Below, one piece after another: positions 13,170 to 43,123 of a stretch of 64,000 bases of DNA (positions are counted from its first letter, which is position 1; the number at the start of each line of letters is the position of its first letter). Below the pieces are notes generated by a model, which ran no database searches, was not told where the DNA came from, and saw nothing but the letters and a program-made list of their open reading frames with translations. The stretch is from an uncultured Chloroflexia bacterium. Lineage in GTDB: Bacteria; Chloroflexota; Limnocylindria; Limnocylindrales; CSP1-4. A program made the translations under genes and the position numbers. The stretch spans positions 222,739-286,738 of the forward strand of contig CAWIML010000009.1 in assembly GCA_963837215.1 (NCBI GenBank). The letters run 5' to 3'.

Positions 13170-13260
13170 TTCGATTACACATCGTTGCATCCGATCCACC
13201 GTATCGTCAACCGTGGGCCCCGATTCCGCCCGCAACGGAACGGCCGCGGATAGACCGTGT

Positions 13261-13290
13261 GCTATCGTTCCTGCAACCGTTACTGGAACG
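13261..13290. promoter_or_regulatory. Operator-like sites directly upstream of the LacI gene (candidate autoregulation)
   Basis: Sequence GCTATCGTTCCTGCAACCGTTACTGGAACG contains the inverted repeat CGTTCC-N13-GGAACG and a copy of the CGTTACTGGAA element also seen at 7696..7706. It lies 24-53 nt upstream of ATG 13314. Confidence 0.45.
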
Positions 13291-13313
13291 ACAGCTGGCA
13301 CACGGAGGTGCGC

Positions 13314-14357
13314 ATGACCGAGCCGAGGCGGCAGGAAGGCCGCCGCAAGCGGGCGAGCATGCGTGAGGTCGCCGATCTTGCGGACGTGGCTATCTCCTCG
13401 GTCTCGCGCGTGCTGTCGGGACATCCAGATGTGAGCGCCGGGATGCGCGATCGGGTCTCGGCTGCCGTCGAGGAGCTCGAGTATGAGCCGGACTTCCTGG
13501 CCCAGAGCCTGCGTCGGGGCGCGACCCTGTCGGTCGGCTATGTCGTCGGCGACATCTCCAACCCGCTGATCGCTACGATCACATCCGGGGCCGAGTCGGT
13601 CCTGCGATCCGCCGGCTACTCGATGCTGCTCATGAACTCGGAGGGAGATCCCGAGTTGGACGCGGCGCACATCCGCTTCTTCCAGGCTCGGCGGGTCGAC
13701 GGCATGATCCTGTCACTGGCGAGCGAGCGGCGGCAGGCCACCCTTGACGGGCTCGCCCAGGTCGATGTCCCGATCATCATGATCGACCGCGACGTTCCAG
13801 CCGACCTCCGCGCCAGCATCGTTCGCAACGATCATCGCGCGGGGATGCGCGAGGGCGTCGGCCACCTGCTCGACCTCGGCCACCGCCGTATCGCCCTGAT
13901 CACGGGTGCTCTCGATCTGTGGCCGGTTCGCGAACGCATCGCCGGCATGGCAGAAGCGGTCACCGCCCGGGGCCTGCCAGACGAGACGATCAGCCTCGTC
14001 GGCTCACTCTCGGCGGAGCACGGCGAGCGCAGCACGGAACAACTCCTCGCCATGCATCCGCGCCCGACGGCGATCGTGGCAGGCGGCAACCAGGTCCTGG
14101 CAGGTTGCGTGCGCGCGATCGTGCGCCATGGCGTGCGCGTGCCGGACGACATGTCTCTCATCACCTGCGACGAGGTCGACCTGTCCGAGCTCTATTCCCC
14201 GCCCATCGCCTCGATCGCGCGCGACACGCTGCTGCTTGGACGGACCGCGGCCGAACTGCTGCTCGAACGCCTCAACGACGGCGAGCCGCGCACGGTGCTG
14301 TTGCCCACGAGCTTCACGGCGCGACCGAGCTGTGGCCCGGTCCCTGCGGAGGGCTAG
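13314..14357 (+). CDS. LacI-family transcriptional regulator
   Basis: N-terminal HTH MREVADLADVAISSVSRVLSG followed by a periplasmic-binding-fold effector domain. GGAGG RBS 5 nt upstream of ATG 13314. It is the only regulator gene in the window. Confidence 0.9.
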   Translation: MTEPRRQEGRRKRASMREVADLADVAISSVSRVLSGHPDVSAGMRDRVSAAVEELEYEPDFLAQSLRRGATLSVGYVVGDISNPLIATITSGAESVLRSAGYSMLLMNSEGDPELDAAHIRFFQARRVDGMILSLASERRQATLDGLAQVDVPIIMIDRDVPADLRASIVRNDHRAGMREGVGHLLDLGHRRIALITGALDLWPVRERIAGMAEAVTARGLPDETISLVGSLSAEHGERSTEQLLAMHPRPTAIVAGGNQVLAGCVRAIVRHGVRVPDDMSLITCDEVDLSELYSPPIASIARDTLLLGRTAAELLLERLNDGEPRTVLLPTSFTARPSCGPVPAEG

Positions 14358-16185: not shown

Positions 16186-16217
16186 GCGAGGGCTCCCACG
16201 CACGGAGGGATCAACCG

Positions 16218-18016: not shown

Positions 18017-18029
18017 GACCAGCCTGCGG

Positions 18030-18710: not shown

Positions 18711-18743
18711 GCTCCGTTGGTCTCCTGTAGCTCGGGGGCGAGT

Positions 18744-19844: not shown

Positions 19845-19878
19845 CTGCGACGACTCCTTGGCATCGATCGTGTGGTCG

Positions 19879-27768: not shown

Positions 27769-29337
27769 ATGACAACAGGATCGGCCACGGCATCGCCACC
27801 AGCGATCGCCGTCGCCGACCTGCGCAAGGCCTATGGTGGGATCCAGGCCCTGATCGGCGTGGATCTCACCATCGACGCGGGCCACATCCATGCCGTCGTC
27901 GGCGAGAACGGCGCCGGCAAGTCCACCCTGATGAAGATCCTCGCTGGAGCCGTCCACCCGGACTCCGGCGAGGTCCGGATCGCCGGGGAGGCCGTTCAAC
28001 TGGCCTCCCCGGCAGATGCTCGCCGCCTCGGTGTCGGCATCGTCTACCAGGAGCTGAGTCTGTTCCCGGAGCGGTCGATCCTGGCCAACCTCTTCCCGGA
28101 CGACCAGCCGACGCGCTTTGGCATGGTCGATACCGACGAGATGCGCCGACGAGCTTCGCCGATCCTCGCGCGGATCGGCCTCGTCGCCGATCCCGACTCG
28201 CCGGTCGCGGACCTCGGTGTCGGCGACCGGCAACTCGTAGAGGTGAGCCGCCTGCTCATCGAGCGGCCCAGCGTCCTGATCCTCGACGAGCCAAATTCGG
28301 CGCTCAACGAGCGCGAGACGCAGCGGCTGTTCACGATCCTGCGTGAGCTGTCTGCCGACGGGGTGACCATCATCTACGTGTCGCATCGCCTCGAGGAGGT
28401 GTTCGACATCGCCGACCGGATCACGGTCATGCGAAACGGCGCCATCGTCACGACGGTCGACCGGCACGCGACGACGATCGGCCGGGTCGTGGAGGCGATG
28501 GTCGGCACGTCGCCGGCAGAGTTGTTCCCAGCGCGCCGGCCCGGATCGGCGTCTGGACCCGCCAGCGTCGTCGTCGATGGCATCTCCGTCGACGCCGAGC
28601 TGCGCGACATCTCGTTCGAGGCGCATCCGGGGCAGATCATCGGCCTGGCAGGCCTCGAGGGCTCCGGCGTAGCCACGCTGCTGGGTGCGCTCTTCGGGAC
28701 GCGGCATGCGACCGGCGGGTCGATCTCATATGCCGATGGCCGCGGCGCCCCGACGTCGCCGACGGCAGCCGCCCGACGGGGCATCAGCCTCGTGCCGGCC
28801 GACCGCAGGAGTCACGGGCTGATGCTGGAGGCGAGCGTCGAGACGAACATCGCCCAGGTCTCCGTCGGAGCGCTGGCCAGTCGTCGGCCGTGGCTTGACC
28901 GCCGCGCGATCAGGATGGCTGCGCAGCGCCACATCGACGGCCTGCGGATCAAGACGAGCGGCCCGGCGGCGATCGTTGGCCGACTGTCAGGCGGCAACCA
29001 GCAGAAGGTCGTCGTGGCGAAGTGGCTCGAGATCGCCCCGAAGGTCTACCTCCTGGACGACCCGACACGCGGCGTCGACGTGGGCGCAAAGCGCGAGATC
29101 TACCGCCTCATCCGGGAACTGGCCGACATGGGCAGGACGATCATCTTCCGTTCCACCGAGCTTCCCGAGGTGGTCGGGCTCGCCGATCGCATCCTCGTCC
29201 TCTATCGCGGCCGCCTCGCCGTCGACGTGGCCGGCGGCGACATCGATGACCACGGGCTGTTGCACGCGATCAACACCGGCCGACTGCCGGGATCCGAGCC
29301 GGCAGACATGCCGATAGAAGAGGAGGTGATCCGATGA
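27769..29337 (+). CDS. Sugar ABC transporter ATP-binding protein (two ATPase domains)
   Basis: GENGAGKST and LSGGNQQKV motifs, plus a second domain GLEGSGV. Confidence 0.9.
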   Translation: MTTGSATASPPAIAVADLRKAYGGIQALIGVDLTIDAGHIHAVVGENGAGKSTLMKILAGAVHPDSGEVRIAGEAVQLASPADARRLGVGIVYQELSLFPERSILANLFPDDQPTRFGMVDTDEMRRRASPILARIGLVADPDSPVADLGVGDRQLVEVSRLLIERPSVLILDEPNSALNERETQRLFTILRELSADGVTIIYVSHRLEEVFDIADRITVMRNGAIVTTVDRHATTIGRVVEAMVGTSPAELFPARRPGSASGPASVVVDGISVDAELRDISFEAHPGQIIGLAGLEGSGVATLLGALFGTRHATGGSISYADGRGAPTSPTAAARRGISLVPADRRSHGLMLEASVETNIAQVSVGALASRRPWLDRRAIRMAAQRHIDGLRIKTSGPAAIVGRLSGGNQQKVVVAKWLEIAPKVYLLDDPTRGVDVGAKREIYRLIRELADMGRTIIFRSTELPEVVGLADRILVLYRGRLAVDVAGGDIDDHGLLHAINTGRLPGSEPADMPIEEEVIR

Positions 29338-29654
29338 TCCGCCGCGCCTTCACGATGCGCCTGAAGCCAGGTGGGCTTGCGGAGTACAAGCGCCATCACG
29401 ATGACATCTGGGCGGATCTCGTGGACGAGATCGAGCGGCAGGGCATCGCCCAGATCTCCATCTTCGAGCGCGATCCTGTCCTGTTCCTGTTTTCGGAGAT
29501 CCGCGACGAGGCGGCATGGGACCGCCTGTGGCATACGGCTGTCCACGACCGGTGGGCCGAGATCATGAACCCGCTCATGGAGTTCAACGACGAGGGCATC
29601 GTCGACTCGAGCGAGCTCCGTGAGGTCTTTCACCTCGAAACGGGTGCCCACTGA
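29334..29654 (+). CDS. rhaM: L-rhamnose mutarotase family protein
   Basis: 106 aa. FTMRLKPG..AEYKRHHDDIW..L...I.....ISIF...L..F.E. and a C-terminal EVFHLE are characteristic of RhaM/YiiL. ATGA overlap with the ATPase gene. Confidence 0.75.
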   Translation: MIRRAFTMRLKPGGLAEYKRHHDDIWADLVDEIERQGIAQISIFERDPVLFLFSEIRDEAAWDRLWHTAVHDRWAEIMNPLMEFNDEGIVDSSELREVFHLETGAH

Positions 29655-29671
29655 CGGGAAGGAGCGATCCG

Positions 29672-30502
29672 ATGCAAGCGGCAGCCAATGACCGTGTCGC
29701 GGTCGTCACCGGAGCCGGCCGAGGGCTCGGTCGCGAGGCCGCCGTCGCTCTCGCGGCTCGCGGCCACCCAGTCGTCGGGGTGGCAAGGAGCGCGACGCAG
29801 CTGGCCGAGACCGCAGAGATCATCGGGTCGGCCGGTGGCCGGATGCTCGCGCGGCGCGCGGACGTCAGCGATCCTGGTGCCGTCGCGGCGATGGCGGCCT
29901 TCGTACGGCAGGAACTTGGCCCGCCCTCGATCCTCATCAATGCCGCCGGGATCTTCGGTCCGATCGCGTTGATCCGGGACAGCGATCCGGCGGCCTGGGT
30001 CGAGACATTGATGATCGACGCCGTGGCCGCGTACCTCACGACCCAGGCCTTCGTGGGCGACATGATCGACGCCGGCTGGGGACGCATCGTGAACATCACC
30101 TCGGCTGCCTCGCTGCATCCGCCCGGCGCCCTCAACAGCGCCTACGCGACCGCGAAAGTCGCGCTCAACCAGCTCACCCGGCACGTCGCCTTCGAGGTAG
30201 CCGGGACGGGCGTCACCGCGAACGTCATCCATCCGGGCGACGTGAAGACGGATATGTGGCAGGGGATCCGCGATCGTGTGGCGACGATGGGGCCGGAGGC
30301 GGAACCCTTCCGCCAGTGGGCGGCCTGGGTCGAAGCGACCGGTGGCGACCCGCCGGAGAAGGCAGTGGCCCTGATCCTGGAGCTCACGTCGGACTCCGGC
30401 GCTGGCCGCAACGGCGAGTTCTGTTGGGTCAAGGATCCGCTGCAAGCGCCGATCGACAGTTGGGAGAAGCCCACCGACGCGCGTCCCTGGATCAGCGACT
30501 GA
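29672..30502 (+). CDS. SDR-family oxidoreductase
   Basis: TGAGRGLG glycine motif and YATAK (YxxxK). Confidence 0.85.
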   Translation: MQAAANDRVAVVTGAGRGLGREAAVALAARGHPVVGVARSATQLAETAEIIGSAGGRMLARRADVSDPGAVAAMAAFVRQELGPPSILINAAGIFGPIALIRDSDPAAWVETLMIDAVAAYLTTQAFVGDMIDAGWGRIVNITSAASLHPPGALNSAYATAKVALNQLTRHVAFEVAGTGVTANVIHPGDVKTDMWQGIRDRVATMGPEAEPFRQWAAWVEATGGDPPEKAVALILELTSDSGAGRNGEFCWVKDPLQAPIDSWEKPTDARPWISD

Positions 30503-30542
30503 TGGCCGCTTCACGCGCGTATCGAGGCAGGATGGGCGGGGC

Positions 30543-31562
30543 ATGAACCCCACGCAGACTCGCACGCTGGGGGCGAGCAACGTGGTGGTCACGGAACTTG
30601 GATTCGGCGGTGCTTCGATCGGTGAGCTCTTCGTGCGAGTGTCGGAGCGGGACGCGCAGGCCACGCTCGTCGCCGCGTGGGACGCCGGCATCCGCTACTT
30701 CGACACGGCCCCCTGGTACGGCCGCGGGCTCTCTGAGCTGCGCACCGGCGCCGGCCTTCGCGACCATGGGCGGGCCGAGTACGCGCTGTCGACCAAGGTG
30801 GGTCGTTGGCTTCGACCCTCGACAGAGGAGGGTTTTGACGGCGCTCCGTGGCTCGGTGGGGCTCCCAACGAAGTCGTCTTCGACTATTCCTACGACGGCA
30901 TCATGCGTTCGGTGGAGCAAAGCCGGCTGCGGCTCGGCATCACCCGTTTCGACATCGCCTTCATCCATGATCTGGATCGCCTCTACTTCGACGAGGCCAC
31001 CTTCGATGGGCACTTCCGCGATCTCGCGTCGTCCGGGTGGCGCGCCCTCGATGAGCTGCGAGCGGCCGGCCAGATCGGGGCGATCGGCGCCGGGATCAAC
31101 GACCTCGGGTTGATGCCGAGGTTCCTGGACATCGCGGACATCGATGCCTTCCTGGTGGCGATGCCCTACACACTCCTTGACCAGGCCGTGCTGGACACGG
31201 AATTCCCTGCCTGCTCTGCGCGGGGGGTCGGGTTCGTCATCGGTTCGCCGTTCGCGTCGGGGATCCTGGCCAAGGGGCCGGTGCCAGGCGCCAGGTACGC
31301 CTACGCCGAGGCATCGCAGGCGATCAAGGACAAGACGGGGCGGATCGCAGCGGTATGCGACCGGCACGGCGTCCCGCTGGCCGCTGCCGCCCTGCAATTC
31401 CCGCTCGGGCACCCGGACGTGGCGTCCGTGATCCCCGGCGCCTCGTCACCGTCCCAGCAGCAGCGGAATGTGGAGATGTTCCGCCATCCGATCCCGGCCG
31501 ACCTGTGGGCGGACCTCAAACACGAGGGTGTGCTTCGCGCCGACGCACCGGTACCAGCGTGA
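30543..31562 (+). CDS. Aldo/keto reductase (D-threo-aldose / L-fucose 1-dehydrogenase-like)
   Basis: LGFGGASIG, FDTAPWYG and IHDLD blocks of the AKR fold. 339 aa. Confidence 0.8.
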   Translation: MNPTQTRTLGASNVVVTELGFGGASIGELFVRVSERDAQATLVAAWDAGIRYFDTAPWYGRGLSELRTGAGLRDHGRAEYALSTKVGRWLRPSTEEGFDGAPWLGGAPNEVVFDYSYDGIMRSVEQSRLRLGITRFDIAFIHDLDRLYFDEATFDGHFRDLASSGWRALDELRAAGQIGAIGAGINDLGLMPRFLDIADIDAFLVAMPYTLLDQAVLDTEFPACSARGVGFVIGSPFASGILAKGPVPGARYAYAEASQAIKDKTGRIAAVCDRHGVPLAAAALQFPLGHPDVASVIPGASSPSQQQRNVEMFRHPIPADLWADLKHEGVLRADAPVPA

Positions 31563-32020
31563 GCGACGGGTTGACGGCCGCTGACCTGGTAGGGACCTGG
31601 CGGCTGCGGGCCTGGACCTCGGAGGGGGCCGGAGGCATCGAGCACCCCATGGGCGAGTCGCCCGAGGGCCTCCTCGTGTACACCGCTGATGGCACGATGA
31701 TCACGACCATCGGCCGAGCCGGACGCCCACCGATCGACGGCGGCGACCTGCTGGCCGGACCGGTCGACCAGCGCCTCGAGGCGATGACGACATTCGTCGC
31801 CTATGCGGGCGCATTCCACGTCGACGGCGCCGACGTCGTCCACGACGTGACGATGAGCCTGTTCCCGAACTGGATCGCGACCTCCCAGCGCCGGCACGTG
31901 CAGCTCAGTCGCGACCGCCGCGAGCTCGAGCTGATCGGAGACGCGATCATGGTCCACGGTCGGCTGCGCACGCAGCGCTTGCGTTGGGAGCGGGTGCCCG
32001 AGGCACCGTCGAGCAGCTGA
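31559..32020 (+). CDS. Lipocalin-like domain protein (function unknown)
   Basis: GTG 31559 overlaps the upstream TGA. LVGTWRL...GLLVYTADGTM pattern typical of bacterial lipocalin-like domains. Confidence 0.5.
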   Translation: MSDGLTAADLVGTWRLRAWTSEGAGGIEHPMGESPEGLLVYTADGTMITTIGRAGRPPIDGGDLLAGPVDQRLEAMTTFVAYAGAFHVDGADVVHDVTMSLFPNWIATSQRRHVQLSRDRRELELIGDAIMVHGRLRTQRLRWERVPEAPSSS

Positions 32021-32028
32021 TCGACCGG

Positions 32029-33321
32029 TCAGGCCCCGCTGGTTTGCACAGAACCGGCCCACGCAGGACCCATCGCGATACGCGCTCCGACATCGGCCCC
32101 GCCCACGGGCTGGTGCACGAGCGCGATCGGGCGCCAGGCGCGGGACACGAACCCGACGAACGCCGGATCCCTGGCGCCCGGCGCCCGGGCCAGGTCAGGG
32201 ATCGCCCGCCACAAGCCACCGAGCGCCTCGGTCGCCTCCATCCGGGCGAGGTGCGCCCCGGCGCAATGTCGCGGCCCGACATTGAAGGCGAGATGCCCCC
32301 ACAGCCTGGGACGGTCTGGGTCGAACGCAGCTGGTCGGTCCCAGCGAGCGGGGTCGCGGTTGGCGGCCGCGTTGACGGCCAGGACCCGCTCGCCAGCCGC
32401 GATCCGAACGCCGCCCAGGTCGACGTCGGTCGTCGCCCGGCGCGCACGCATGTGCACGACGGTGGAATGGCGCAGCACCTCCTCCAGGAACCGGGCGAAC
32501 GCCGCCGGGTCGGCGAGCGTGGCGTCACGTGCTGCGGCCGCCATGTCCAGGAGCCGATGCATGGCCGTGCAGATCAGGAAGGCGGTCGTCTCAGAGCCGC
32601 CCTCGAAGATGAACTTCGCGTTGTCGAGGACGTCCTGCTCGCCCCAATCTGGCGCGGCCTCACGCCCGGCCGCCCAGAGCAGGCTGATGGCGTCGCCCTC
32701 CGGGCGATCGCGGCGGGCGCGGACGGTGTCGAGCAGCAGGGGCTCAAGCAGGCGGGTGGCCTCCTCGGCCGCGACCCTCGCCTCGGGGTCCTCGCCGTAT
32801 GAGTGGCGCCAGGCCAGAACGGCCTCCATCCAGCCCTTGGCCCGGTCCAGGGTCGCCACGTCGGCATCCGGCAGGCCGAGCACGCGGGTGATGACCGCGA
32901 TCGGCAGCAGGCGAGCGAAATCGGCGAACAGCTCGAAGGCACCATCCCGCGCCAGGGCAGCCAGTCGCTCCGCGACGAGCGGGCGGACGGCGGCGAGAGC
33001 CAGGGGCGCGATCGGATCGGGCCGCCAGGCATGCGAGACCGAGCGATGGAGTGCGTCGTGGGGCGCTCCGACGAGTGACCGGAAGTCGCGCCGCCCGACG
33101 ATCTGGGCGGCTCCCGGGAGCGTTCCCGTCGGCTCTTCGAAGAGGTCTTCCCGGCGCTCGACGAGGCTGCAGCCGTCGTGAGACAGCACCAGCCAGGCCG
33201 ACATCCCCTCGTCCCAGACCACCGATCCGACCGCGCGTATGCGCTCGTAGGCTGGGTACGGATCCACGTCGCGCAGGTCGCGCAATGAGATGGGCGACAT
33301 CGGCCGTACCGCGACCGTCAC
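32029..33321 (-). CDS. Cytochrome P450
   Basis: Heme-thiolate loop FNVGPRHCAG, I-helix-like FEGGSETT and an ExxR region. The GTG start overlaps the upstream isomerase stop by 4 nt. Confidence 0.9.
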   Translation of the reverse strand: MTVAVRPMSPISLRDLRDVDPYPAYERIRAVGSVVWDEGMSAWLVLSHDGCSLVERREDLFEEPTGTLPGAAQIVGRRDFRSLVGAPHDALHRSVSHAWRPDPIAPLALAAVRPLVAERLAALARDGAFELFADFARLLPIAVITRVLGLPDADVATLDRAKGWMEAVLAWRHSYGEDPEARVAAEEATRLLEPLLLDTVRARRDRPEGDAISLLWAAGREAAPDWGEQDVLDNAKFIFEGGSETTAFLICTAMHRLLDMAAAARDATLADPAAFARFLEEVLRHSTVVHMRARRATTDVDLGGVRIAAGERVLAVNAAANRDPARWDRPAAFDPDRPRLWGHLAFNVGPRHCAGAHLARMEATEALGGLWRAIPDLARAPGARDPAFVGFVSRAWRPIALVHQPVGGADVGARIAMGPAWAGSVQTSGA

Positions 33322-34756
33322 ACGACCACCGCCTCGACACCGAGATGCTTGGCCACCGCGACGACGTCGCCCGAGAGGTCGCCGGGCGTCGCCGAACTAT
33401 GGTGATTGACCCCGGCGCTGGCCCAGCGACTCCAGGCCGTCTCGACCGAGCCTTCGGCGAACCGGAAGGCGCCGTTGATCGTGCCCGTCTCTGGGAAGGT
33501 CCGGGCGGTCAGCTCGCCCCGTGCGACGACGAAGCGGAACCCGCCATGCGCCGCGGGGTGCGGTGTGAAGCCCACCAGCGTGGCCGGTCCGGGGGGCGGT
33601 TCGAAGACGGCGCACACCCCGCAGTGGACATCCTTGCCGCAGAACCAGCCATTGGGCCGCAGCCGCGGTCGCGCTCCGGGGGCCAGCCAGGCGAGGTCGT
33701 GTTCTCCGGAGTTCGCGATGACGACCTCGCCGGTCGCATAGTCGATGGCCTCGATCTCGTGGTAGACGGCTGCTCCGCCGAGCCGCTTGGTCGTGAGCAT
33801 GGCGACCGCGGTGACCACGTCGCCGGTGCAGGTGAATGGTCGGCCGCCGGACGTCAGGCGGCCCAGCGCCCAACACGGCGCGATGCCGATCGGCTCACCG
33901 AAGCGGAACTGCGGGACGTGGCAGTTGAAGGCGCCCCCATCCAGGTCGTGGGCGGCGACCACGGCCTCCAGCGCCAGCGCCGCGCGCAGCGATCGGTCCA
34001 AGGAATCGGCGGATGGAACGCCCTCGAACGTCCAGTCGCGGCGGACATCCGCCTCGAGCGCCCGGACGTCCGCGTCGGCGACCGCGAGGTATCGCTCGAC
34101 GACCTCGTCCGCGTCGACGCCGACGAGCTCGATCCCGGTCGCCGCCTGCAGGGCTGCGTCATCGACATCCACGTGGGCATACCCTTCCACTGGCCTGCCG
34201 ATCCGACCGAGTCGACTTCGCGATATCCCGCGCGCGATGCCGGCCAGACGCACAGCCATCTGCACGCGGGCGACGGTGTTCGGGTCGGATCGCCGACCCA
34301 GGACGAGGTCGAACGGACGGTCCGCCCTCGACAACAGGTTGGTGATCATCGGGGCCCCGACGGTCGCGCCCTGGGTCGTGATCGATCCGTGGTCGAACCG
34401 TCCGTCCACGAGACCGACCTCGTGCAACGCCCAGACCACGACAGGGATGCCGGGGAGGAGCGTCGATCGCGGCCATCGTCCAGGCGGCGGGCACCGCCAT
34501 CGTCTGGAGGACGAGGACCACGTCGACCGCGGCGTCGGCGAACTCGCGCCCGATGTTGACTCCGTCCTCGGCCGAGGCGATCTCGACGACCGCGACCGTG
34601 TCGACCGCTCCGATCGCGGCGAGCTCGTCGGCGACGGATCGCGCAAGGGCCATCCTGTCCGCCCGGAAGGTCGGGCTCGGCGGTGTGCTCCCAGAGCGTC
34701 CAGTATGGGTGGACGATCCCGACCCGCGGTCGGTGGTCGGCGGTGTTTGCGGGCAT
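33318..34756 (-). pseudogene. L-fucose/L-arabinose-isomerase-family sugar isomerase, interrupted by two +1 frameshifts
   Basis: The N-terminus MPANTADHRPRVGIVHPYW (frame of ORF 34346..34864) continues as MALARSVADEL..VVLVLQTMAV (ORF 34159..34653). It then continues as LLPGIPVVVWALHEVG... to the end (ORF 33318..34646). Shifts are at about 34655-34700 and about 34455-34465. Confidence 0.65.
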
Positions 34757-34757
34757 C

Positions 34758-35406
34758 TCAGTCCTGGTGGAAGACCTCGTCCGCGGTGATGAGGTTGCCG
34801 TCGGGATCGGTGATCGTGGTGATGATCCCCTCGAACGCAGCACCCCAGCGGGCATTGACCTCATACGTCGCCATCTTCCCGAAGACGCTGGTCAGATCCG
34901 GGTAGAACTCCCCGTAGTAGACGACGTGCCCGCCGCGCCGGAAACCGGTGTACTTGCGGAACCCGGACGTCTCGATGGCGGCCATCAAGTCAGGCCACGG
35001 GTTCGCATGGAGCGCCTCGTATTCGTCGGCGCGGTCGGGGTCGATGACCAGGCCGAACAGCGCCCGCTGGAACGGGCCATCCAGCGGCGGGCCATCCGCG
35101 TAGAAGACCTCGTCGTACCAGAGCAGTTCGCCGGCGTCGTCCGTGATCTGCGGCGATGACGTCCCGGAAGTAGTGGTTCCAGCGCTGGTTCGCCGGCTTG
35201 GGCCCGTGGACGCCGAAGGCTGTGGCCGCGTCCGGGTCGGCTTCGAGGAAGTACCAGACATCCGTTCCGCGTCGGAAGCCGGACATGTTGCGCAAGCCCG
35301 ACTCGCGGATCTCGGTCGTGAGCTCCGGCCAGATCTCCGCATGCCTGCGGTCGTACTCGGCCTCTGTCCCGGGGAAGATGCGGAGGTAGAAGCAGGCGCG
35401 TTCCAT
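34758..35406 (-). pseudogene. Tandem (two-domain) L-rhamnose-mutarotase-family protein, one +1 frameshift
   Basis: Domain 1 (MERACFYLRIFPGTEAEYDRRH..., ORF 34990..35406) joins at about 35150-35156 to ...ITDDAGELLWYDEVFYADG plus domain 2 (ALFGLVIDPDRADEYEALH...EVFHQD, ORF 34758..35441). Confidence 0.65.
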
Positions 35407-35426
35407 GAGCGGGCCCTCGAGCTGAC

Positions 35427-35440
35427 TGGCAACGGTTCCA
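35427..35440. promoter_or_regulatory. LacI-type operator-like near-palindrome TGGCAACGGTTCCA
   Basis: 21 nt upstream of the mutarotase/isomerase/P450 operon start (35406). One of the better matches to the recurrent motif. Confidence 0.55.
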
Positions 35441-35492
35441 ACCGAGATGCTACCGCCTCGCGGTGGCGCCCGTATCCGGTCGACGCTGGCTG

Positions 35493-36317
35493 CTAAGCGA
35501 AGAGGATGAGCGCCACGCCAACGGCCACGATCGTCGCAGCCACGACGGCGCGCGCCGCCGGCATCGTTCGGCGCCTGATCGACTCGAAGAGGAGGATCAT
35601 CAATGGCGTCGTCGCGACCATGGTCTGTACCACGACGGGGCTGCCGGTCTGAGCGCCGAGGATGACGAACACGAAGTAGGTGGTCACCACCACGGATCGA
35701 CCCAGCAGGCGCGGGATGTCGGCACGGGCGACATCGCGGGGCGGGAAGACGGCGATACAGATGATGGCCGCCAGTGACGTTCTCACGACGTACGTTTCCA
35801 CCACGCCTACACCCTGGTCACCGAGCAGGGTGCTCGCGACGGTCAGGAGGCCGGTACCGGTCGCCGCCCCGATGATGCGCCACGTGCGGCCCCAGTGACC
35901 CAGCCCGGCAAAGGCATCCGCCAGCGCGACGAGGACCCCGATCACGACCACGAACGCCGCCACCACCTGGATCGGATGGACGGCGCCAGGCAGGACGACC
36001 GCGGCGGCCAATGCGGTCGGGACCGGGCTCATGGCTGTCGCGGTCGTCGTCGCCGACGCCGACCCGTGATCGAACAGGTCCCAGACGCAGATGGCGGTCA
36101 CGACCATCAGGGCGACGGACACCAGGTGAAGTCCGACGATCGTGGGGCTCCAGACCCAAACCGCGAACGGCGCGAACGGCAGGAGAACGAGCGCATTGGC
36201 CAGGTACAGAACGCCGATCAGCTGGCGGGCGGGCGCGCGATAGGTGAGCTCCTTGCTGATCACGGCCTGACCGGCATTCGTCAGCGCGGCCAGGAACCCG
36301 AACACGACCGCGCTCAC
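35493..36317 (-). CDS. EamA/DMT-family membrane transporter-like protein
   Basis: About 274 aa from GTG 36317, about 9-10 hydrophobic segments, Ala/Val/Leu-rich. The upstream part of the track ORF (to 36881) is antisense to the next gene. Confidence 0.6.
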   Translation of the reverse strand: MSAVVFGFLAALTNAGQAVISKELTYRAPARQLIGVLYLANALVLLPFAPFAVWVWSPTIVGLHLVSVALMVVTAICVWDLFDHGSASATTTATAMSPVPTALAAAVVLPGAVHPIQVVAAFVVVIGVLVALADAFAGLGHWGRTWRIIGAATGTGLLTVASTLLGDQGVGVVETYVVRTSLAAIICIAVFPPRDVARADIPRLLGRSVVVTTYFVFVILGAQTGSPVVVQTMVATTPLMILLFESIRRRTMPAARAVVAATIVAVGVALILFA

Positions 36318-36350
36318 GAAACCCTCCGAGACATGCGAGCCGCTCGCGCG

Positions 36351-36399
36351 TGGTATCGTGCTCGCAACCAGTCTGCAAACGCTACCGGTATCGTCAAGC
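36351..36399. promoter_or_regulatory. Cluster of three operator-like sites (TGGTATCGTGCTCGCA, TCTGCAAACGCTACCGG, CGGTATCGTCAAGC)
   Basis: Fills much of the 111-nt divergent gap between the DMT gene and Cys-rich paralog 1. Confidence 0.5.
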
Positions 36400-36428
36400 A
36401 TGCTCGGTCGGGCGAGCGGGAGGCCAGG

Positions 36429-37545
36429 GTGAGCGAGACCGCCATCGCGTTCACGGATCTGCTGGGCAGGCGTGTCCGGATGGGTCCCTGGGAGGACCAG
36501 AAGGTTTCCACCTACCGAAAGATCATCGAAGCCCTCGAGGGCGGCCGGTGGGACGAGGCGGCGACTCTCGGTAGCTACTTCGTGGACGAAGCGAATGTCT
36601 GCTTCACGCTCTATCGGCAGTGGATCGGCGACCTGAACGGGTTCCTGCGCGACAAGGGTGTCGACGAGGACGTCATCCAGGCGCGCAACGACCAGGCGGT
36701 CGCGGTCGCGACCCTGCCGGACGGCACGCCGTGGCTTCCCCGGAAGCATTGGGACCGGTTCCTGTCCGAGGTCCAGGCCTTCACGGCCGCGACCTATCGC
36801 GAGCGGCCCGACGAGGCCCGCCGCCGGCTGGACACCATGAAGGAGACCTGGCGTCAGTGTCACGACCGCGACGTCGACCACACCTATGCGCTGATGTCGT
36901 TGATCAAGGAGCAGCTCGGCGAGGACGCCATCAGGGAGATGTTCGATCGCGTCCTGCTACCGCTGTTCGTGTGGCGTTATGAGAAGTTCGACATCGACAA
37001 GTACCCGTGGGACGAGTCCCTCGAGATCCTGATGCTCGTGGCCTGCGAGGCGATGCGCGGCCATCTCGTGGGGCCCGGAGCGGACCGGCGACATGGAGCT
37101 CGTCGAGCTCGAAGACCGCTTCGTCCTGCGCTTCGATCCGTGTGGCTCAGGCGGCCGGACGCTGCGCGGCGACTCGATCGAGGGCACGCCACCGCGGATG
37201 CAGCCCCCGTATGACTGGACCGTGACAGAGGAGCCCCACACCTGGAACCACAACACGCCAGGTGTCTGCCTCTACTGCACCCACTGCATCATCCTGATGG
37301 AGGAGATGCCCATCGATCGCTTCGGCTACCCCGTCCGGGTGGTCGACCCGCCGGTCTACGACGCAGCGCGAACCGCGGTCGGCGAAGCGCAGAAGTGCCA
37401 GTGGCAGATGTTCAAGGATCCGACCCAGGTCCCCGAGGAGTACTACACGCGAGTCGGGCGAACGAAGCCGACGACCTTCGGGTCCAAGGCGCATGGCGCC
37501 CGTCAGCTGCCGGTCATGAACGCCGGACTTCCTGGCGCCGGCTGA
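36429..37545 (+). pseudogene. Uncharacterised Cys-rich protein family, copy 1 (one +1 frameshift at about 37080-37083)
   Basis: GTG 36429 after GGGAGG. The frame of ORF 35895..37214 runs up to ...EAMRGHLVGPGA. ORF 37093..37545 then supplies ...MELVELEDRFVLRFDPCGSGGR...GVCLYCTHC...KCQW. It is collinear with 41151..42290 and 55659..56750. Confidence 0.7.
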
Positions 37546-37572: not shown

Positions 37573-37616
37573 GGGGCGCCGCCGAAGCCTCCTCCTCGGC
37601 GGCGCCCCATTTCTTC
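37573..37616. terminator. Intrinsic-terminator-like hairpin between convergent genes
   Basis: Perfect 13-bp GC-rich stem GGGGCGCCGCCGA (37573..37585) / TCGGCGGCGCCCC (37596..37608) with a 10-nt loop, followed by ATTTCTT. Confidence 0.6.
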
Positions 37617-37648
37617 GTCATCCGCCTGCTGCCGTCGGAGATGGCGGG

Positions 37649-38776
37649 TCAGTCGAAGCGGTAGCCGCGCACGACCGCCTCGTCGACGTCGACGCCCAGC
37701 CCGGGGCCGGCCGGCGGGATGACCCAGCCGTCGACCTGTTCGATCGGACGTCGGACGAGCTCGTGCTGCATCGGTGATGGCAGCGGCTTGAGTTCCATGA
37801 GCAGCACGTTGTCCGATGCGGCGGCCAGGTGGAGCGAGGCCGCGGTGTTGAGCGCGCTGCTCCACGAGTGGGCGTTCCACGCCCGCCCGGCCCGACTCGC
37901 TGCGCGGATGACGTTCCAGGTGCCGGTCACGCCCTCGGCCTTGCCCGGATCGACCATCACCACATCCACCCCGCCCGAGTCGATCAGTCGATCATAGTGA
38001 TCGATCGTCCAGCCCTTCTCACCGGTGCAGATGCGGGTGGTGGCTGCGGCATGAAGAGCCTGGTACCCGGCGATGTCGTTCTCCGGCAGCGGGTCCTCGA
38101 GCCAGAACAGACCGACCTCATCGTCGAGCCGATGGGCCATGTGGATGGCATGCTCTGGGGTCCAGCCCGCGAGGGCAACGACGTCGCAGATCATCTCGAT
38201 GTCGTCGCCGATCGCGCGCCGCACCGCGTGCGCGATCGCCATGTCGCGCGCCTCGTCGCGCCCGAAGGCCCTGGCGAGATCATGGCCCCAGCCACCTTTC
38301 ACGATGGTGTAGCCCTGATCCCGGAATGCGGAGAACTCCTCGGTGATGCGCTCCGTGTCGTCGCCGTGGAAGATCGCACTGGCACACGCGCGCAGCCGAT
38401 CGTGTCGCCGGCCGCCCAACATCTCCGACAGGGACCGGCCCTCGATGCGGCCCTTGAGGTCCCACAACGCCATGTCGAGGGCTGAGATCGCGAACGTCAC
38501 GATGCCGCCATTGCCATCCCAGTAGGTCGCGTCGCGCATGCGCGTCCACAGGTCGGTCACATCCAGGGCATCCTGCCCGATGAGGAGCGGTGCCAGGCGC
38601 CGCTCCGCGATCAACCGGACGGCAAGCGACGTCTCCTGCGTGCCGCTGACCGCTTCGCCCCAGCCCACCTGCCCGTCGTCGGCCTCCACCCGCGCCAGCG
38701 TCAGCGAGCGGATCTTGCCGTCGTTGTTCGGTTCCGGGTAGCGGACCGCGAAAGCCTCGACGCGGGCGATGCTCAC
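37649..38776 (-). CDS. Enolase-superfamily dehydratase-like protein (second subtype)
   Basis: VGWGEA, ALWDLKGR, WLEDP and GEKGW blocks. Paralog of 21209..22348. GTGA overlap with the upstream VOC gene. Confidence 0.85.
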   Translation of the reverse strand: MSIARVEAFAVRYPEPNNDGKIRSLTLARVEADDGQVGWGEAVSGTQETSLAVRLIAERRLAPLLIGQDALDVTDLWTRMRDATYWDGNGGIVTFAISALDMALWDLKGRIEGRSLSEMLGGRRHDRLRACASAIFHGDDTERITEEFSAFRDQGYTIVKGGWGHDLARAFGRDEARDMAIAHAVRRAIGDDIEMICDVVALAGWTPEHAIHMAHRLDDEVGLFWLEDPLPENDIAGYQALHAAATTRICTGEKGWTIDHYDRLIDSGGVDVVMVDPGKAEGVTGTWNVIRAASRAGRAWNAHSWSSALNTAASLHLAAASDNVLLMELKPLPSPMQHELVRRPIEQVDGWVIPPAGPGLGVDVDEAVVRGYRFD

Positions 38777-39252
38777 GCCGTCCAGTCCGGACCGCCGGGC
38801 GGCTCCTCGAGCAATTCGATCGAAATGCCGTCAGGGTCCCGGAGGTAGCAAGCGCGACCACCGCGGTATGGCCCCCATGGGATGTCCACCGGAGCGTCCG
38901 AGCGGAACGTGTCGAAGCCGGCAGCCTGCAGTCGGAGGTAGTCAGCCGACATGTCGTCCGTGACGAGGCAGAGGTGGGCATTCCCGGCGTTGTACGACTC
39001 CATGTCGACGACGCCGGCCGGCGGTGACTTGTACTCCAGCAGTTCGAGGATCACACCGTTCGGAAGCTGGAAGAAGGCGCCTTCGAGGACCAGGTCGGCG
39101 TAGCCGACGATCTCGCCCACGTACGGGACATCCCAGGTCTTGCGGGTGATCATCGGGACGCCGAGCAGCGCTTCGTAGAACGCGATCGAGCGATCCAGAT
39201 CGGCGACTGCGTACCCGACATGATCGAGCGCCCGAAACCGCGGACCAGTCAT
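38773..39252 (-). CDS. VOC (glyoxalase/dioxygenase) family protein
   Basis: LDHVGYAVADLDRSIAFY... and DPDGISIELLE. ATG 39252 preferred; the track start is 39288. Confidence 0.75.
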   Translation of the reverse strand: MTGPRFRALDHVGYAVADLDRSIAFYEALLGVPMITRKTWDVPYVGEIVGYADLVLEGAFFQLPNGVILELLEYKSPPAGVVDMESYNAGNAHLCLVTDDMSADYLRLQAAGFDTFRSDAPVDIPWGPYRGGRACYLRDPDGISIELLEEPPGGPDWTA

Positions 39253-39294
39253 CACTCCAACCGTAGTGGACGATGGTTGGTCGCGCAACAGCCG

Positions 39295-40035
39295 TCAGTG
39301 GAGGGCGAGGCCGCCGGTGATGTCGAACTCCGCCCCGGTCGCGTACGTGTTCTGGTCGCTCACGAGCCAGGCGACCATCCGGCCGATCTCGGCCGGATCT
39401 GCGATCCGGCGAAGCGGGATCATCTCCCGCTCCGCCTTGGCCACCAACTCCGGCGAGGTCTCGTTGAGGAGCATGCCCGTCCTCATCCCCCCGGGACAGA
39501 CGGTGTTGACCAGGACGCCGTGTTCGGCTCCATGGCGTGCGAGCATCTTGGTGAAGACGGCCACGGCGCCCTTGGATGCCTCGTAGATGGCCGAGGTCAT
39601 GGTGAAGCCGCCTTCATAGACCCCGGTCGAGGTCACGTTGACGATCCGCCCCCAGCCACGGGAGGCCATGTCCGGAATGGCCGCCCGGGCGAGGATGAAG
39701 GGGGCAAGGGCGTTGACGTGGAAGACGCGGTCGAAGTCCGCGGGGGTGACGTCGTCGAACGCGCGACGGTGCAGGATCGCCGCCGCGTTGACCAGGGCGT
39801 CGACGCGTCCGAACGCGGCGATCGTCCGAGGGACCACCGTTTCCGCCTCGTCCGCGAGGCCGAGGTCGACGACCTGCGTCATCGCGTCCGCCCCCAGTGC
39901 GCTGACCTCGGCACGCGTGCGTTCGACCGCATCGCCCTGGTTGTCGACGAGGCTTAGCCGGTAGTCGCCTGCCTCGGTCAGCAACCGCGCGACCGCCGAC
40001 CCGAGCCCTCCACCGGCTCCGGTGATGATGGCCAC
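39295..40035 (-). CDS. SDR-family oxidoreductase
   Basis: GTG 40035 with AAGGAG 6 nt upstream. TGAGGGLG and YEASK motifs. The rest of the 554-aa track ORF is antisense to 40074..41150. Confidence 0.8.
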   Translation of the reverse strand: MAIITGAGGGLGSAVARLLTEAGDYRLSLVDNQGDAVERTRAEVSALGADAMTQVVDLGLADEAETVVPRTIAAFGRVDALVNAAAILHRRAFDDVTPADFDRVFHVNALAPFILARAAIPDMASRGWGRIVNVTSTGVYEGGFTMTSAIYEASKGAVAVFTKMLARHGAEHGVLVNTVCPGGMRTGMLLNETSPELVAKAEREMIPLRRIADPAEIGRMVAWLVSDQNTYATGAEFDITGGLALH

Positions 40036-40073
40036 GCGCCGCTCCTTATTGCCGGCGGACGGTGAACCGCTCG

Positions 40074-41150
40074 TCACGATCTCGCTCCTTCCAGGCTCGT
40101 TGCCAACCCATCCTGCGCGGCGCTTCGGTACGCGGCGTGGAGGGTCTCGACGGTGAGCTGCCCGATCCAGGCCGGCGAACCATTGATGCCCGATCCGCTG
40201 GCGAGATCGATCAAGTTCCGCGCGGGGCTTGTCATCGGGTATCGATCTTGGGGTGGCAGGACTGGCTCCTCGATCGTGCCGTCCTGGCCGTAGAGCCGCA
40301 GCGACCCGTCCATGACTCCGAAATGCAGGTGCCCGACCGAACCGTGGATGATGTATTCGAGGGTATCGGTGTGCGTCACGGGCGCGACGGCGCCAGTACT
40401 GCCGACGACCCCGAGCGCCCCGCCTCGAAAACGGATGGCAAGGGCGTCCACGACATCGACCGCCGTCCCTTGGCGGTCCATGAACGCCGTCACCCGTTCT
40501 GGTTCCAGCCCGGTCAGGAAGATCAGCAGCGCGATGGAATGGGTGAGCTGCGTCTGGCCCTGGCCGCCGCCTGCCAGGTCGGGTTCCGAGTAGGTCGTCG
40601 CCAACGGCCCGTCGAACGCCTCGCCCGCGCCGTACGCATAGACGTCGAGCTCTGGCGCTCCACGGTACAGGTTGATCGGGCTCGAGCCGAAGAAGGACTG
40701 CACATAGTGGATGGATCCGATCCGCCCATCCTCGATCCAGGCGCGGGCTCGCAGGACCTGCTGGTTGTAGTGCCACGTGTAGCCGACCACGATCTCCACG
40801 CCGGCCGCGGCAGCTGCCGCGATCAGCGCTCGGCCGTCCGCCGGCTCGAGCACGAGCGGCTTCTCCACGAGGACGTGGACGCCGCGGCCGACGGCGTCGA
40901 GGGCGATCTCGTAGTGGTAGCGGTGCGGTGCCGCGACGATGAGGGCGTCGAGTTCGCACTCCGCCAGCATCGCCGCGGGGTCGTCGAAGCAGGCTTCGAC
41001 ACCGTAGCGACGCGCGGACCGCTCGAGGTTCGGGCGATCAGGGTCGGCCAGCGCGACGAGCTCGGCGTGCGGGTGGCTCGCGACGGCGGGAAGGTGCGCC
41101 GTCCTGGCCCAGTGGCCGACGCCGGCGACACCGATCCGCACGCGATGCAT
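40074..41150 (-). CDS. Gfo/Idh/MocA-family dehydrogenase
   Basis: VRIGVAGVGHW, EKPL and GGGQGQTQLTH. Its ATG directly abuts the stop codon of the Cys-rich gene (41151), with a 0-nt spacer. Confidence 0.85.
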   Translation of the reverse strand: MHRVRIGVAGVGHWARTAHLPAVASHPHAELVALADPDRPNLERSARRYGVEACFDDPAAMLAECELDALIVAAPHRYHYEIALDAVGRGVHVLVEKPLVLEPADGRALIAAAAAAGVEIVVGYTWHYNQQVLRARAWIEDGRIGSIHYVQSFFGSSPINLYRGAPELDVYAYGAGEAFDGPLATTYSEPDLAGGGQGQTQLTHSIALLIFLTGLEPERVTAFMDRQGTAVDVVDALAIRFRGGALGVVGSTGAVAPVTHTDTLEYIIHGSVGHLHFGVMDGSLRLYGQDGTIEEPVLPPQDRYPMTSPARNLIDLASGSGINGSPAWIGQLTVETLHAAYRSAAQDGLATSLEGARS

Positions 41151-42290: not shown

Positions 42291-42318
42291 CCGTCCCTCC
42301 GCGTCCTATCGCCGGGTG

Positions 42319-43092: not shown

Positions 43093-43123
43093 GCCTGGAG
43101 CCTAGCAGACCGAATCGGCCGCG

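What the first reader, a model, noticed from the sequence alone, without database searches (positions are those of the whole stretch)
32029..35440. Cytochrome P450 translationally coupled to a sugar isomerase and a tandem mutarotase, with no redox partner nearby
The operon order on the minus strand is operator (35427..35440), two-domain RhaM-family protein, L-fucose/arabinose-isomerase-family gene, then P450. Gene junctions are 1 nt and a 4-nt GTGA overlap. P450s are rare in sugar operons. The known precedent is oxidative demethylation of 6-O-methyl-D-galactose by marine bacterial P450s that work with ferredoxin and ferredoxin reductase. No ferredoxin or reductase gene is adjacent here; the only ferredoxin domain in the window is in the RACo protein. 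Together with the corrinoid system, the island may therefore carry two independent routes for removing or oxidising substituents on sugars.
Basis: partly seen in the sequence, partly recalled or inferred. Interest (0 to 1): 0.62.

Follow-up and report, generated by a model that had tools for sequence, protein, structure and literature searches.

The report
P450 coupled to sugar-enzyme operon
A soil Chloroflexota bacterium carries an intact, repressor-controlled operon in which a cytochrome P450 is translated right behind two sugar-handling enzymes, so the P450 probably modifies a sugar, but relatives can lose or move it and its substrate is still unknown.

Summary
On the minus strand there is a LacI-type operator (35427-35440), a two-domain RhaM protein, an AraA-fold protein and a P450. 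The junctions are TGA-G-ATG and GTGA. No ferredoxin or reductase gene lies anywhere in the 64 kb.

Three corrections apply:
- The frameshifts are almost certainly consensus errors. All four are +1 insertions, absent from 7 orthologues and from short-read contigs of near-identical soil strains.
- The "isomerase" has a full AraA fold (TM 0.82) but passes no Pfam or NCBIfam threshold. It lacks AraA's catalytic Glu306 and has three family-specific cysteines.
- The P450 is a new family. Its closest solved relative is about 30% identical, and the CYP236A2 structure is not recognisable among the 60 best PDB matches.

The RhaM-AraA-like-P450 trio and its operator are conserved in 15 of 17 related Limnocylindria-like genomes. 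The P450 is nevertheless an add-on. Three genomes keep only a 68-aa remnant. Two place it behind a sugar-lactonase-like gene. More distant AraA-like paralogues pair with an unknown cysteine-rich protein and no P450.

Best reading: an accessory, partner-dependent monooxygenase that acts on a sugar derivative, perhaps by O-demethylation. Interest is moderate.

The parts
35427..35440 (.). LacI-type operator upstream of the tandem RhaM gene
   Evidence: TGGAACCGTTGCCA. One GCTGGTACCG[AT]TTGCAG lies at the same place in 14 of 14 orthologous loci. The consensus TGGTACCGTTTGCA has 9 matches (up to 3 mismatches) in the window against 1.4 expected.
34758..35406 (-). Tandem (two-domain) RhaM-family mutarotase-like protein, 215 aa once one extra base near 35151 is removed
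   Evidence: PF05336 with 2 stretches, E 3e-32. Both halves keep E. coli RhaM Y18, H22, W26, R75-W76 and E99-V-F. The +1 insertion is absent from 7 orthologues and from a short-read contig of run X2.
33318..34756 (-). AraA-fold protein ('isomL', 478 aa after removing one base near 34677-34679 and one near 34464); uncharacterised clade with a remodelled active site
   Evidence: No Pfam hit. NCBIfam SftI 68 bits (cut-off 700) and AraA 29 bits. The AF2 model of orthologue P0001 (86% identical) has pLDDT 85.5 and matches full-length L-arabinose isomerases at TM 0.82. AraA E306 aligns with Thr, E333 and H450 are conserved, and C278, C294 and C309 are family-specific. More than 100 intact orthologues of 473-481 aa exist.
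32029..33321 (-). Cytochrome P450, 430 aa, intact; GTG start overlaps the stop of the AraA-like gene (GTGA)
   Evidence: PF00067. Heme-thiolate, ExxR and acid-alcohol motifs are read directly. The best solved relative is 4rm4 at 124 bits and about 30% identity. The NTGA stop-start overlap is kept in 11 of 13 orthologous loci. No indels against short-read contigs.
35493..36404 (-). EamA (DMT superfamily) transporter just upstream on the same strand; the true start may be near 36335
   Evidence: PF00892, 2 stretches. Syntenic in most orthologous loci.
36374..36387 (.). Second operator copy in the divergent EamA / unk371 promoter region
   Evidence: CGGTAGCGTTTGCA, 2 mismatches to the consensus.
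36429..37545 (+). unk371: conserved cysteine-rich protein of unknown fold, divergently transcribed; one extra base near 37074 in the window
   Evidence: No Pfam, NCBIfam or PDB match. The AF2 model of the paralogue P0121 has pLDDT 90.9 and no PDB fold match. Cys-X41-Cys-X2-Cys-X2-Cys plus one more Cys are invariant. Homologues lie next to isomL paralogues in L028, L030 and L031.
13257..14357 (+). Candidate regulator: the only LacI-family repressor gene found in the window, flanked by operator copies at 13154 and 14475
   Evidence: Pfam LacI + Peripla_BP_3. NCBIfam RbsR-like at 183 bits, below its cut-off. Sites. Its assignment to this operon is inferred.

Best explanation
The cluster is a live operon of a soil Chloroflexota (Limnocylindria-like) bacterium. 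It sits inside a large sugar and sugar-acid catabolic island.

Shown: a LacI-family operator lies upstream. The three genes are packed so that ribosomes can pass from one gene to the next (1-nt spacer, then a GTGA overlap).

Inferred pathway:
- A sugar enters through the adjacent EamA/DMT carrier or one of the island's ABC importers.
- The tandem RhaM interconverts its anomers.
- The AraA-fold enzyme rearranges it. This is an isomerase-like reaction, but the active site has lost AraA's Glu306 and gained three cysteines.
- The P450 is an ordinary O2-activating class-I monooxygenase. It draws electrons from a ferredoxin and reductase encoded elsewhere in the genome.
- It oxidises a modified form of that sugar or of a pathway intermediate. 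The most likely reaction is removal of an O-methyl group as formaldehyde; hydroxylation of a deoxy position is the alternative.
- The product can then enter the dehydrogenase-lactonase-dehydratase routes of the island.

The P450 is an accessory add-on, not a core step. The conserved core across lineages is the AraA-like protein plus the unknown cysteine-rich protein unk371. The frameshifts in the window are sequence errors, not gene decay.
For: - Junctions and motifs are read directly.
- The trio is syntenic in 15 of 17 related genomes with P450 74-80% identical. L017's apparent 45% is a frameshift artefact.
- The stop-start overlap is conserved in 11 of 13 loci.
- The operator is conserved in 14 of 14 loci and enriched 9 against 1.4 in the window.
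- The island encodes 5 ribose-type ABC systems, 4 enolase-superfamily dehydratases, lactonases (PTE, Amidohydro_2, SGL), many SDR and GFO/IDH/MocA enzymes, and a second RhaM.
- Where the P450 has moved (L008, L015) it follows a protein related to D-apionate lactonase (209 bits, below the cut-off), again a sugar context.
- The P450 has the Glu-Thr pair of O2-activating P450s.
- Frameshifts as errors: four +1 insertions are absent from 7 orthologues. Soil short-read contigs omit one base at 34464, 34677/34679, 35151 and 37074, in at least one contig each; at 34464 and 34679 other contigs in the same runs do not show the omission. A control stretch, 37600-43100, shows no indels.
- Accessory status: a 68-aa in-frame remnant in L033-L035 sits beside intact RhaM and AraA-like genes. 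isomL paralogues lie next to unk371 without any P450 in L028, L030 and L031.
- Precedent for an accessory sugar-demethylating P450: CYP236A (PMC6292453, PMC10033563).
Against: - No substrate evidence of any kind exists.
- The P450's nearest solved relatives act on fatty-acid, polyketide and steroid-type substrates at about 30% identity.
- NCBIfam gives only sub-threshold hits to secondary-metabolite P450s.
- The P450 can be lost or relocated, so the coupling is not obligatory.
- No formaldehyde-detoxification gene was recognised beside it.
- No ferredoxin or reductase lies in 64 kb.
- No transcript data could be found.
- The AraA-like protein lacks a catalytic residue of true isomerases, so even the 'sugar isomerase' step is inferred.
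Confidence: 0.5

Rival explanations
1. The P450 works on a non-carbohydrate substrate (lipid, terpenoid, aromatic methyl ether, xenobiotic). It merely rides in a well-expressed operon, so its position says nothing about its chemistry.
For: - The closest solved and curated relatives are generic CYP107/109/164-type and natural-product P450s at about 30% identity.
- The gene is separable from its neighbours: deleted in L033-L035 and moved in L008 and L015.
- isomL and unk371 pair without a P450 in other lineages.
Against: - The stop-start overlap with the AraA-like gene is conserved in 11 of 13 loci, and synteny holds in 15 of 17 genomes at 20-26% protein divergence.
- The alternative location is also a sugar-lactonase context.
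- The operon sits in a LacI-type sugar regulon.
Confidence: 0.25
2. The operon is decaying in this organism. The RhaM and AraA-like genes are true pseudogenes, and the P450 is silent or orphaned.
For: The window sequence carries one frameshift in RhaM, two in the AraA-like gene and one in unk371. Four of the roughly five or six frame breaks in the window cluster in 34460-37075.
Against: - All four are single-base insertions, mostly in or beside short C/G runs.
- Near-identical strains in four soil metagenomes lack exactly these bases. They also lack single bases at three or four sites in the 35440-35488 spacer.
- A neighbouring control stretch has none.
- The affected proteins are as conserved as their intact neighbours: 84-95% against 78-80% to L001.
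- Sister long-read MAGs (L003, L015, L016, L017) show the same kind of frame breaks.
Confidence: 0.05
3. The trio is biosynthetic rather than catabolic. It would make or tailor an unusual sugar, for example for a glycolipid, cell envelope polymer or natural product, with the P450 hydroxylating the sugar or its aglycone.
For: The best NCBIfam hits are to P450s and P450-like proteins of glycosylated natural-product pathways, all far below their cut-offs. The EamA family includes exporters (general knowledge).
Against: - No glycosyltransferase, nucleotidyl-transferase or NDP-sugar enzyme lies in the window.
- The neighbours are importers, dehydrogenases, lactonases and dehydratases under a LacI-type operator.
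- RhaM acts on free sugars (family knowledge).
Confidence: 0.1

Closest known systems
CYP236A carbohydrate demethylases (P450ZoGa / CYP236A2 of Zobellia galactanivorans and the Formosa agariphila enzyme)
   Same: A soluble bacterial P450 encoded inside a sugar-utilisation locus as an accessory step. It makes a modified sugar usable by turning 6-O-methyl-D-galactose into D-galactose plus formaldehyde (PMC6292453, PMC10033563).
   Different: - CYP236A genes sit with their own ferredoxin, ferredoxin reductase and a Zn-ADH in marine Bacteroidota PULs (PMC10033563). Here there is no partner gene in 64 kb.
- The phylum differs (soil Chloroflexota), and so do the neighbours (tandem RhaM and an AraA-fold protein).
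- No detectable special sequence relationship: no chain described as a carbohydrate P450 is among the 60 best of 427 PDB hits.
- The B-C loop signature could not be compared.
CYP109/CYP107/CYP164-type class-I bacterial P450s (PDB 4rm4, 9lw0, 3r9b, PikC, EryF)
   Same: Best sequence matches. Same length class, same heme-thiolate, ExxR and acid-alcohol motifs.
   Different: Only about 30% identical, below the 40% convention for a CYP family (convention cited from memory). Those enzymes act on fatty acids, macrolides or steroids and are not in sugar operons.
L-arabinose isomerase AraA (and L-fucose isomerase FucI, sulfoquinovose isomerase SftI)
   Same: Full-length fold match to AraA (TM 0.82; FucI 0.74). 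AraA E333 and H450 are conserved, and D308 is conserved. SftI is the best curated model hit.
   Different: - 17-18% identity.
- Fails every Pfam and NCBIfam cut-off.
- Catalytic Glu306 is replaced by Thr or Ser in 56 of 64 family representatives.
- Three near-invariant cysteines (NCH, C294, CTGD) have no AraA counterpart.
- Habitually next to unk371, Zn-ADH, SDR and lactonase genes rather than a kinase and an epimerase or aldolase.
L-rhamnose mutarotase RhaM/YiiL
   Same: Both halves match PF05336 and keep Y18, H22, W26, R75-W76 and E99-V-F of E. coli RhaM.
   Different: Two domains are fused in one chain (215 aa) instead of a homodimer of about 104-aa subunits. A normal single-domain RhaM also lies in the neighbouring ABC operon (29334-29654).

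Membership tests
Cytochrome P450 superfamily (PF00067) | Profile score above the curated cut-off | tested here: met
   61.8 bits against a cut-off of 22.8. 427 PDB P450 chains match at E<=1e-3.
Cytochrome P450 superfamily (PF00067) | Heme-thiolate loop FxxGxRxCxG, ExxR in the K helix, and the acid-alcohol pair in the I helix | tested here: met
   FNVGPRHCAG, EEVLRH and FEGGSETT are read in the translation and align with the same motifs in 4rm4.
CYP236A carbohydrate O-demethylases | Family-level sequence identity to CYP236A members (40% or more by CYP convention) | tested here: inconclusive
   No CYP236A sequence could be loaded. Indirect test only: none of the 60 best PDB matches (down to 83 bits) is described as the carbohydrate P450, and the best of all is only about 30% identical.
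CYP236A carbohydrate O-demethylases | Ferredoxin and ferredoxin-reductase genes (and a Zn-ADH) beside the P450 | tested here: not met
   No such genes within 64 kb. None within 10 kb of the operon in L033-L035. The feature is taken from PMC10033563.
CYP236A carbohydrate O-demethylases | Invariant B-C-loop and beta1-4 substrate residues (V58, E62, R66, Q70, F73, L267, M270 of P450ZoGa) | not tested
   Needs the CYP236A2 sequence or structure for alignment. Residues are from PMC6292453.
CYP236A carbohydrate O-demethylases | Demethylation of a methyl sugar with release of formaldehyde | not testable with these tools
   Needs a biochemical assay.
L-arabinose isomerase (AraA) family | Three-domain AraA fold | tested here: met
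   Foldseek against the PDB: 33 AraA chains at E 1e-21 to 1e-26, TM 0.79-0.84 over the full length. The model has pLDDT 85.5.
L-arabinose isomerase (AraA) family | Curated profile score (Pfam Arabinose_Isome / NCBIfam PRK02929) | tested here: not met
   No Pfam hit at E<=0.01. NCBIfam AraA gives 29 bits against a cut-off of 622, and SftI 68 against 700.
L-arabinose isomerase (AraA) family | Catalytic and metal residues E306, E333, H350, H450 (E. coli numbering, recalled from the literature) | tested here: not met
   E306 aligns with T310 (Thr or Ser in 56 of 64 representatives). E333 and H450 are invariant. H350 aligns with H352 in one alignment but with an invariant Gly in the family-wide one, and position 352 is His in only 29 of 64. 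Alignments.
RhaM / YiiL mutarotase (PF05336) | Profile score above the cut-off, and conserved Tyr18/His22 (roles recalled from the literature) | tested here: met
   111 bits against a cut-off of 23.4, two stretches. Y18, H22, W26, R75-W76 and E99-V-F are invariant in both halves.
LacI/GalR-type operator | About 14-bp imperfect palindrome with a central CG, upstream of the regulated gene, conserved and over-represented | tested here: met
   TGGAACCGTTGCCA lies 21 nt upstream of the ATG. It is conserved in 14 of 14 loci. There are 9 sites against 1.4 expected, none of 100 shuffles reaching 9. Repressor binding was not tested.

The most novel reading that the evidence does not exclude
This P450 founds a new, terrestrial family of carbohydrate-active P450s, unrelated to marine CYP236A. 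It would strip methyl groups from, or hydroxylate, sugars released from plant or microbial polymers in soil. It would work in one LacI regulon alongside a corrinoid-dependent methyltransferase system. The same island would then hold an O2-dependent and an O2-independent way to remove sugar methyl ethers. These would feed a pathway built on two uncharacterised cysteine-rich enzymes: the AraA-fold clade and the unk371 new fold.
Probability: 0.2. Interest if true: 0.75.

Novelty: new variant of a known kind. Interest (0 to 1): 0.45.

Why it matters
Methyl ethers on sugars block ordinary catabolism. The only described enzymatic answer is the marine CYP236A system.

If this operon does the same job, it would extend carbohydrate-active P450s to an abundant, uncultured soil lineage (Limnocylindria-like Chloroflexota). 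It would give a concrete gene set to express and assay.

Independently of the P450, the work shows that its two habitual neighbours are uncharacterised families widespread in soil metagenomes. One is an AraA-fold clade with a cysteine-rich active site. The other is a confidently modelled protein with no fold match in the PDB. They sit inside sugar-acid clusters and are better candidates for new chemistry than the P450 itself.

Tried and rejected
- Exact look-up of the window's P450 and of P0121 in the contig collection found nothing, so the source record stayed unknown.
- No RNA-seq run holds the operon, so expression could not be tested.
- The sigma-70 promoter and terminator scan of 31500-37000 found nothing. 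This is uninformative for this phylum.
The stretch 37600-43100 was used instead.
- L017's P450 looked like a 45%-identical replacement, but it is the same gene broken by frameshifts.
- I considered unk371 as a hidden redox partner because of its Cys-X2-Cys-X2-Cys motif. I did not adopt this. It has no ferredoxin-like match. It also pairs with the AraA-like gene where no P450 exists.
- I considered a peroxygenase-type, partner-independent P450. I rejected it because the I-helix Glu-Thr pair is present and the CYP152 hit is negligible (19 bits).
Full report
**What is there.** The window is 68% G+C. Its nearest relatives are soil MAGs labelled Chloroflexia, Chloroflexota or Candidatus Limnocylindrales. 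On the minus strand, ATG 35406 opens a two-domain RhaM protein that ends at TGA 34760-34758. One base later, ATG 34756 opens a 478-aa gene that ends at TGA 33320-33318. GTG 33321 of a 430-aa cytochrome P450 overlaps that stop (GTGA), and the P450 runs to 32029. Pfam confirms RhaM (two stretches) and the P450. The P450 carries FNVGPRHCAG, EEVLRH and FEGGSETT, so it is a normal heme-thiolate, O2-activating enzyme. It converges on a plus-strand operon of ABC importer, single RhaM, SDR, aldo-keto reductase and lipocalin-like protein (27769-32020).

**The frameshifts are not gene decay.**
- A codon-position HMM finds four frame breaks without stops, at about 35151, 34667, 34461 and 37070. Only one or two further candidates exist elsewhere in the 64 kb.
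- Aligned with seven orthologues, the three breaks in RhaM and the AraA-like gene are each one extra base in the window.
- Assembled contigs of four unrelated soil and rhizosphere metagenomes, 95-99% identical to the window, omit exactly one base at 34464, 34677/34679, 35151 and 37074. They also omit single bases at three or four sites in the 35440-35488 spacer.
- The neighbouring 5.5 kb (37600-43100) shows no indel at all in the same runs.
- Removing the four bases restores full-length proteins that match the orthologues through the former breaks.
- More than 100 intact 473-481-aa orthologues of the middle gene exist in public data.
- Sister long-read MAGs show the same kind of breaks (L003, L015, L016, L017).
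- I read this as a local patch of consensus errors. The pseudogene reading gets about 5%.

**The operator.** TGGAACCGTTGCCA (35427-35440) lies 21 nt before the RhaM start. In 14 of 14 orthologous loci, a single GCTGGTACCG[AT]TTGCAG occupies the same position, and in 13 of them it is the only match to the motif in the 21-kb locus (L017 has a second). The consensus TGGTACCGTTTGCA, with up to 3 mismatches, occurs 9 times in the window against 1.4 expected. No shuffle out of 100 reached 9. All nine sites are intergenic or at the edge of an ORF: 1428, 7665, 13154, 14475, 35427, 36374, 43124, 47989 and 61048. Two of them flank the only LacI-family gene found (13257-14357). One (14475) precedes the RACo and corrinoid methyltransferase genes. 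The operon therefore belongs to an island-wide LacI-type regulon. Which repressor binds it is inferred.

**No redox partner.** Pfam and NCBIfam scans of the large ORFs of the window and a six-frame scan for ferredoxin, Rieske and rubredoxin cysteine motifs find only the 2Fe-2S domain of RACo. From general knowledge of actinobacterial and other genomes, most class-I P450 genes lack adjacent partners, so this is not anomalous.

**The 'isomerase'.**
- It has no Pfam hit. NCBIfam gives only sub-threshold hits: SftI sulfoquinovose isomerase at 68 bits against a cut-off of 700, and AraA at 29 against 622.
- An AlphaFold model of orthologue P0001 (86% identical; pLDDT 85.5, pTM 0.88) matches L-arabinose isomerases over their full length (TM 0.79-0.84, 16-19% identity). 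It matches L-fucose and D-arabinose isomerases less well (TM about 0.74).
- Against E. coli AraA, E333 and H450 are conserved and H350 aligns with H352, but catalytic E306 aligns with Thr310.
- Across 64 representatives of the family, down to 25% identity, that position is Thr or Ser in 56. E333, H451 and H452 are invariant or nearly so. Three cysteines with no AraA counterpart (C278 in N-C-H, C294, C309 in C-T-G-D) are present in 61 of 64.
- The family is modest in size: 159 cluster representatives at E<=1e-30 among 1.84 billion.
- It is an AraA-fold clade with a remodelled active site. 'Isomerase' is a reasonable guess, not a finding.

**The P450.** The closest solved structures are 4rm4 (124 bits, about 30% identity over 350 residues), 9lw0, CYP164A2, YjiB, PikC, TamI and EryF. 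NCBIfam gives only far-sub-threshold hits to natural-product P450s. In one genome per species of GTDB, relatives above 60% identity occur only in 17 Chloroflexota MAGs, and the next hit is 32%. By the 40% convention this is a new CYP family. The carbohydrate P450 CYP236A2 has a deposited structure (PMC6292453), yet no chain so described is among the 60 best of 427 PDB matches. A direct alignment was not possible.

**How tight is the coupling?**
- The RhaM-AraA-like-P450 order holds in 15 of 17 related genomes. An NTGA stop-start overlap between the last two genes holds in 11 of 13.
- In L008 and L015 the P450 is 89% identical between the two and 69-77% identical to the rest. There it follows a 662-aa protein related to D-apionate lactonase (209 bits, below the cut-off) and precedes a protein whose N-terminus looks MlrC-like by eye. 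There is no RhaM, no AraA-like gene and no operator.
- In three MAGs (L033-L035), whose AraA-like gene is 84% identical to the window's, the P450 is reduced to a 68-aa in-frame remnant equal to residues 382-430. The remnant still overlaps the upstream stop, while RhaM and the AraA-like gene are intact.
- AraA-like paralogues of 47-51% identity in other lineages sit beside unk371 homologues, Zn-ADH, SDR, PTE or Amidohydro_2 lactonases and a single RhaM, with no P450 (L028, L030, L031). L032 has neither unk371 nor a P450.
- The conserved core is therefore AraA-like plus unk371. The P450, with the tandem RhaM, is an addition specific to the Limnocylindria-like group.

**Mechanism.** The steps shown are the operator, the co-translation geometry, the sugar-catabolic setting and the accessory status of the P450. 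The rest is inferred. A modified sugar is imported and its anomers are equilibrated by the tandem RhaM, both halves of which keep Y18, H22, W26, R75-W76 and E99-V-F. It is rearranged by the AraA-fold enzyme. It, or a variant of it, is oxidised by the P450 with electrons from partners encoded elsewhere. An accessory oxygenase bolted onto a sugar pathway is exactly the logic of CYP236A in porphyran loci (PMC6292453, PMC10033563). O-demethylation is therefore my first guess and hydroxylation of a deoxy carbon the second. I put about 0.5 on 'acts on a sugar or sugar derivative' and about 0.3 on demethylation specifically. The main rival is a non-carbohydrate substrate with the gene hitch-hiking (0.25). 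A biosynthetic role (0.1) and a dead operon (0.05) follow.

**Verdict.** The finding is a new variant of a known kind, a P450 inside a sugar operon. It is of moderate interest because no substrate evidence exists and the P450 is dispensable in nature. The more unusual objects are its neighbours.

Noticed in passing
window 36429-37545 (+), 41151-42233 (-), 55659-56750 (-): Three paralogues (39-46% identical) of a roughly 370-aa protein, 'unk371'. It has no Pfam, NCBIfam or PDB sequence match. Invariant Cys-X41-Cys-X2-Cys-X2-Cys plus one more Cys. More than 1,100 homologues, all labelled 'hypothetical'. The AF2 model of P0121 has pLDDT 90.9 but no fold match in the PDB (best E 1.2). It always lies in sugar-acid clusters. 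In three other lineages it is next to AraA-like paralogues, and in one case next to GH67-N-like proteins.
   Followed up: partly
window 14443-20189: A complete corrinoid methyl-transfer set embedded in a sugar-catabolic island and preceded by the island's LacI-type operator (14475). It comprises RACo with a 2Fe-2S domain, a pterin-binding methyltransferase, DUF1638, a B12-binding protein and an MtaA/CmuA-like URO-D methyltransferase (233 bits against a cut-off of 244). The substrate is unknown. No paper linking corrinoid methyltransferases to methylated sugars was found.
   Followed up: partly
window 34464-37074: A 2.6-kb patch holds eight or nine single-base insertions relative to near-identical strains: four in genes and four or five in the 35440-35488 spacer. 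The flanking 5.5 kb has none. This looks like a locally unpolished stretch of a long-read assembly.
   Followed up: yes
window 1428, 7665, 13154, 14475, 35427, 36374, 43124, 47989, 61048: An island-wide regulon. Nine copies of a TGGTACCGTTTGCA-like site, in or at the edge of intergenic DNA, precede ABC importers, dehydratase, lactonase and dehydrogenase operons, a 2-oxoacid dehydrogenase E2 operon and the corrinoid genes.
   Followed up: partly
L033:11422-11628 (also L034, L035): A natural in-frame deletion of the P450. A 68-aa ORF made of the start codon plus the C-terminal 49 residues remains, still overlapping the AraA-like stop. An inserted ABC transporter and a luciferase-like monooxygenase follow.
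   Followed up: yes
L008:7977-11320, L015: An alternative home of the P450: directly after a 662-aa protein distantly related to D-apionate lactonase ApnL (209 bits, cut-off 750, no Pfam hit) and before a convergent gene that looks MlrC-like by eye.
   Followed up: partly
window 24199-25305 (-): A 368-aa ORF with good coding statistics but no Pfam or NCBIfam match. It lies between a Zn-ADH gene and an ABC permease gene.
   Followed up: no
window about 50485 and about 45918: Two further possible frame changes in the codon-position HMM. One is inside the metallo-beta-lactamase/NPCBM-associated ORF 49923-51725, whose first 190 or so residues look better in another frame. The other is at the end of the ABC ATPase gene 45357-46076. 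Neither was checked against reads.
   Followed up: no
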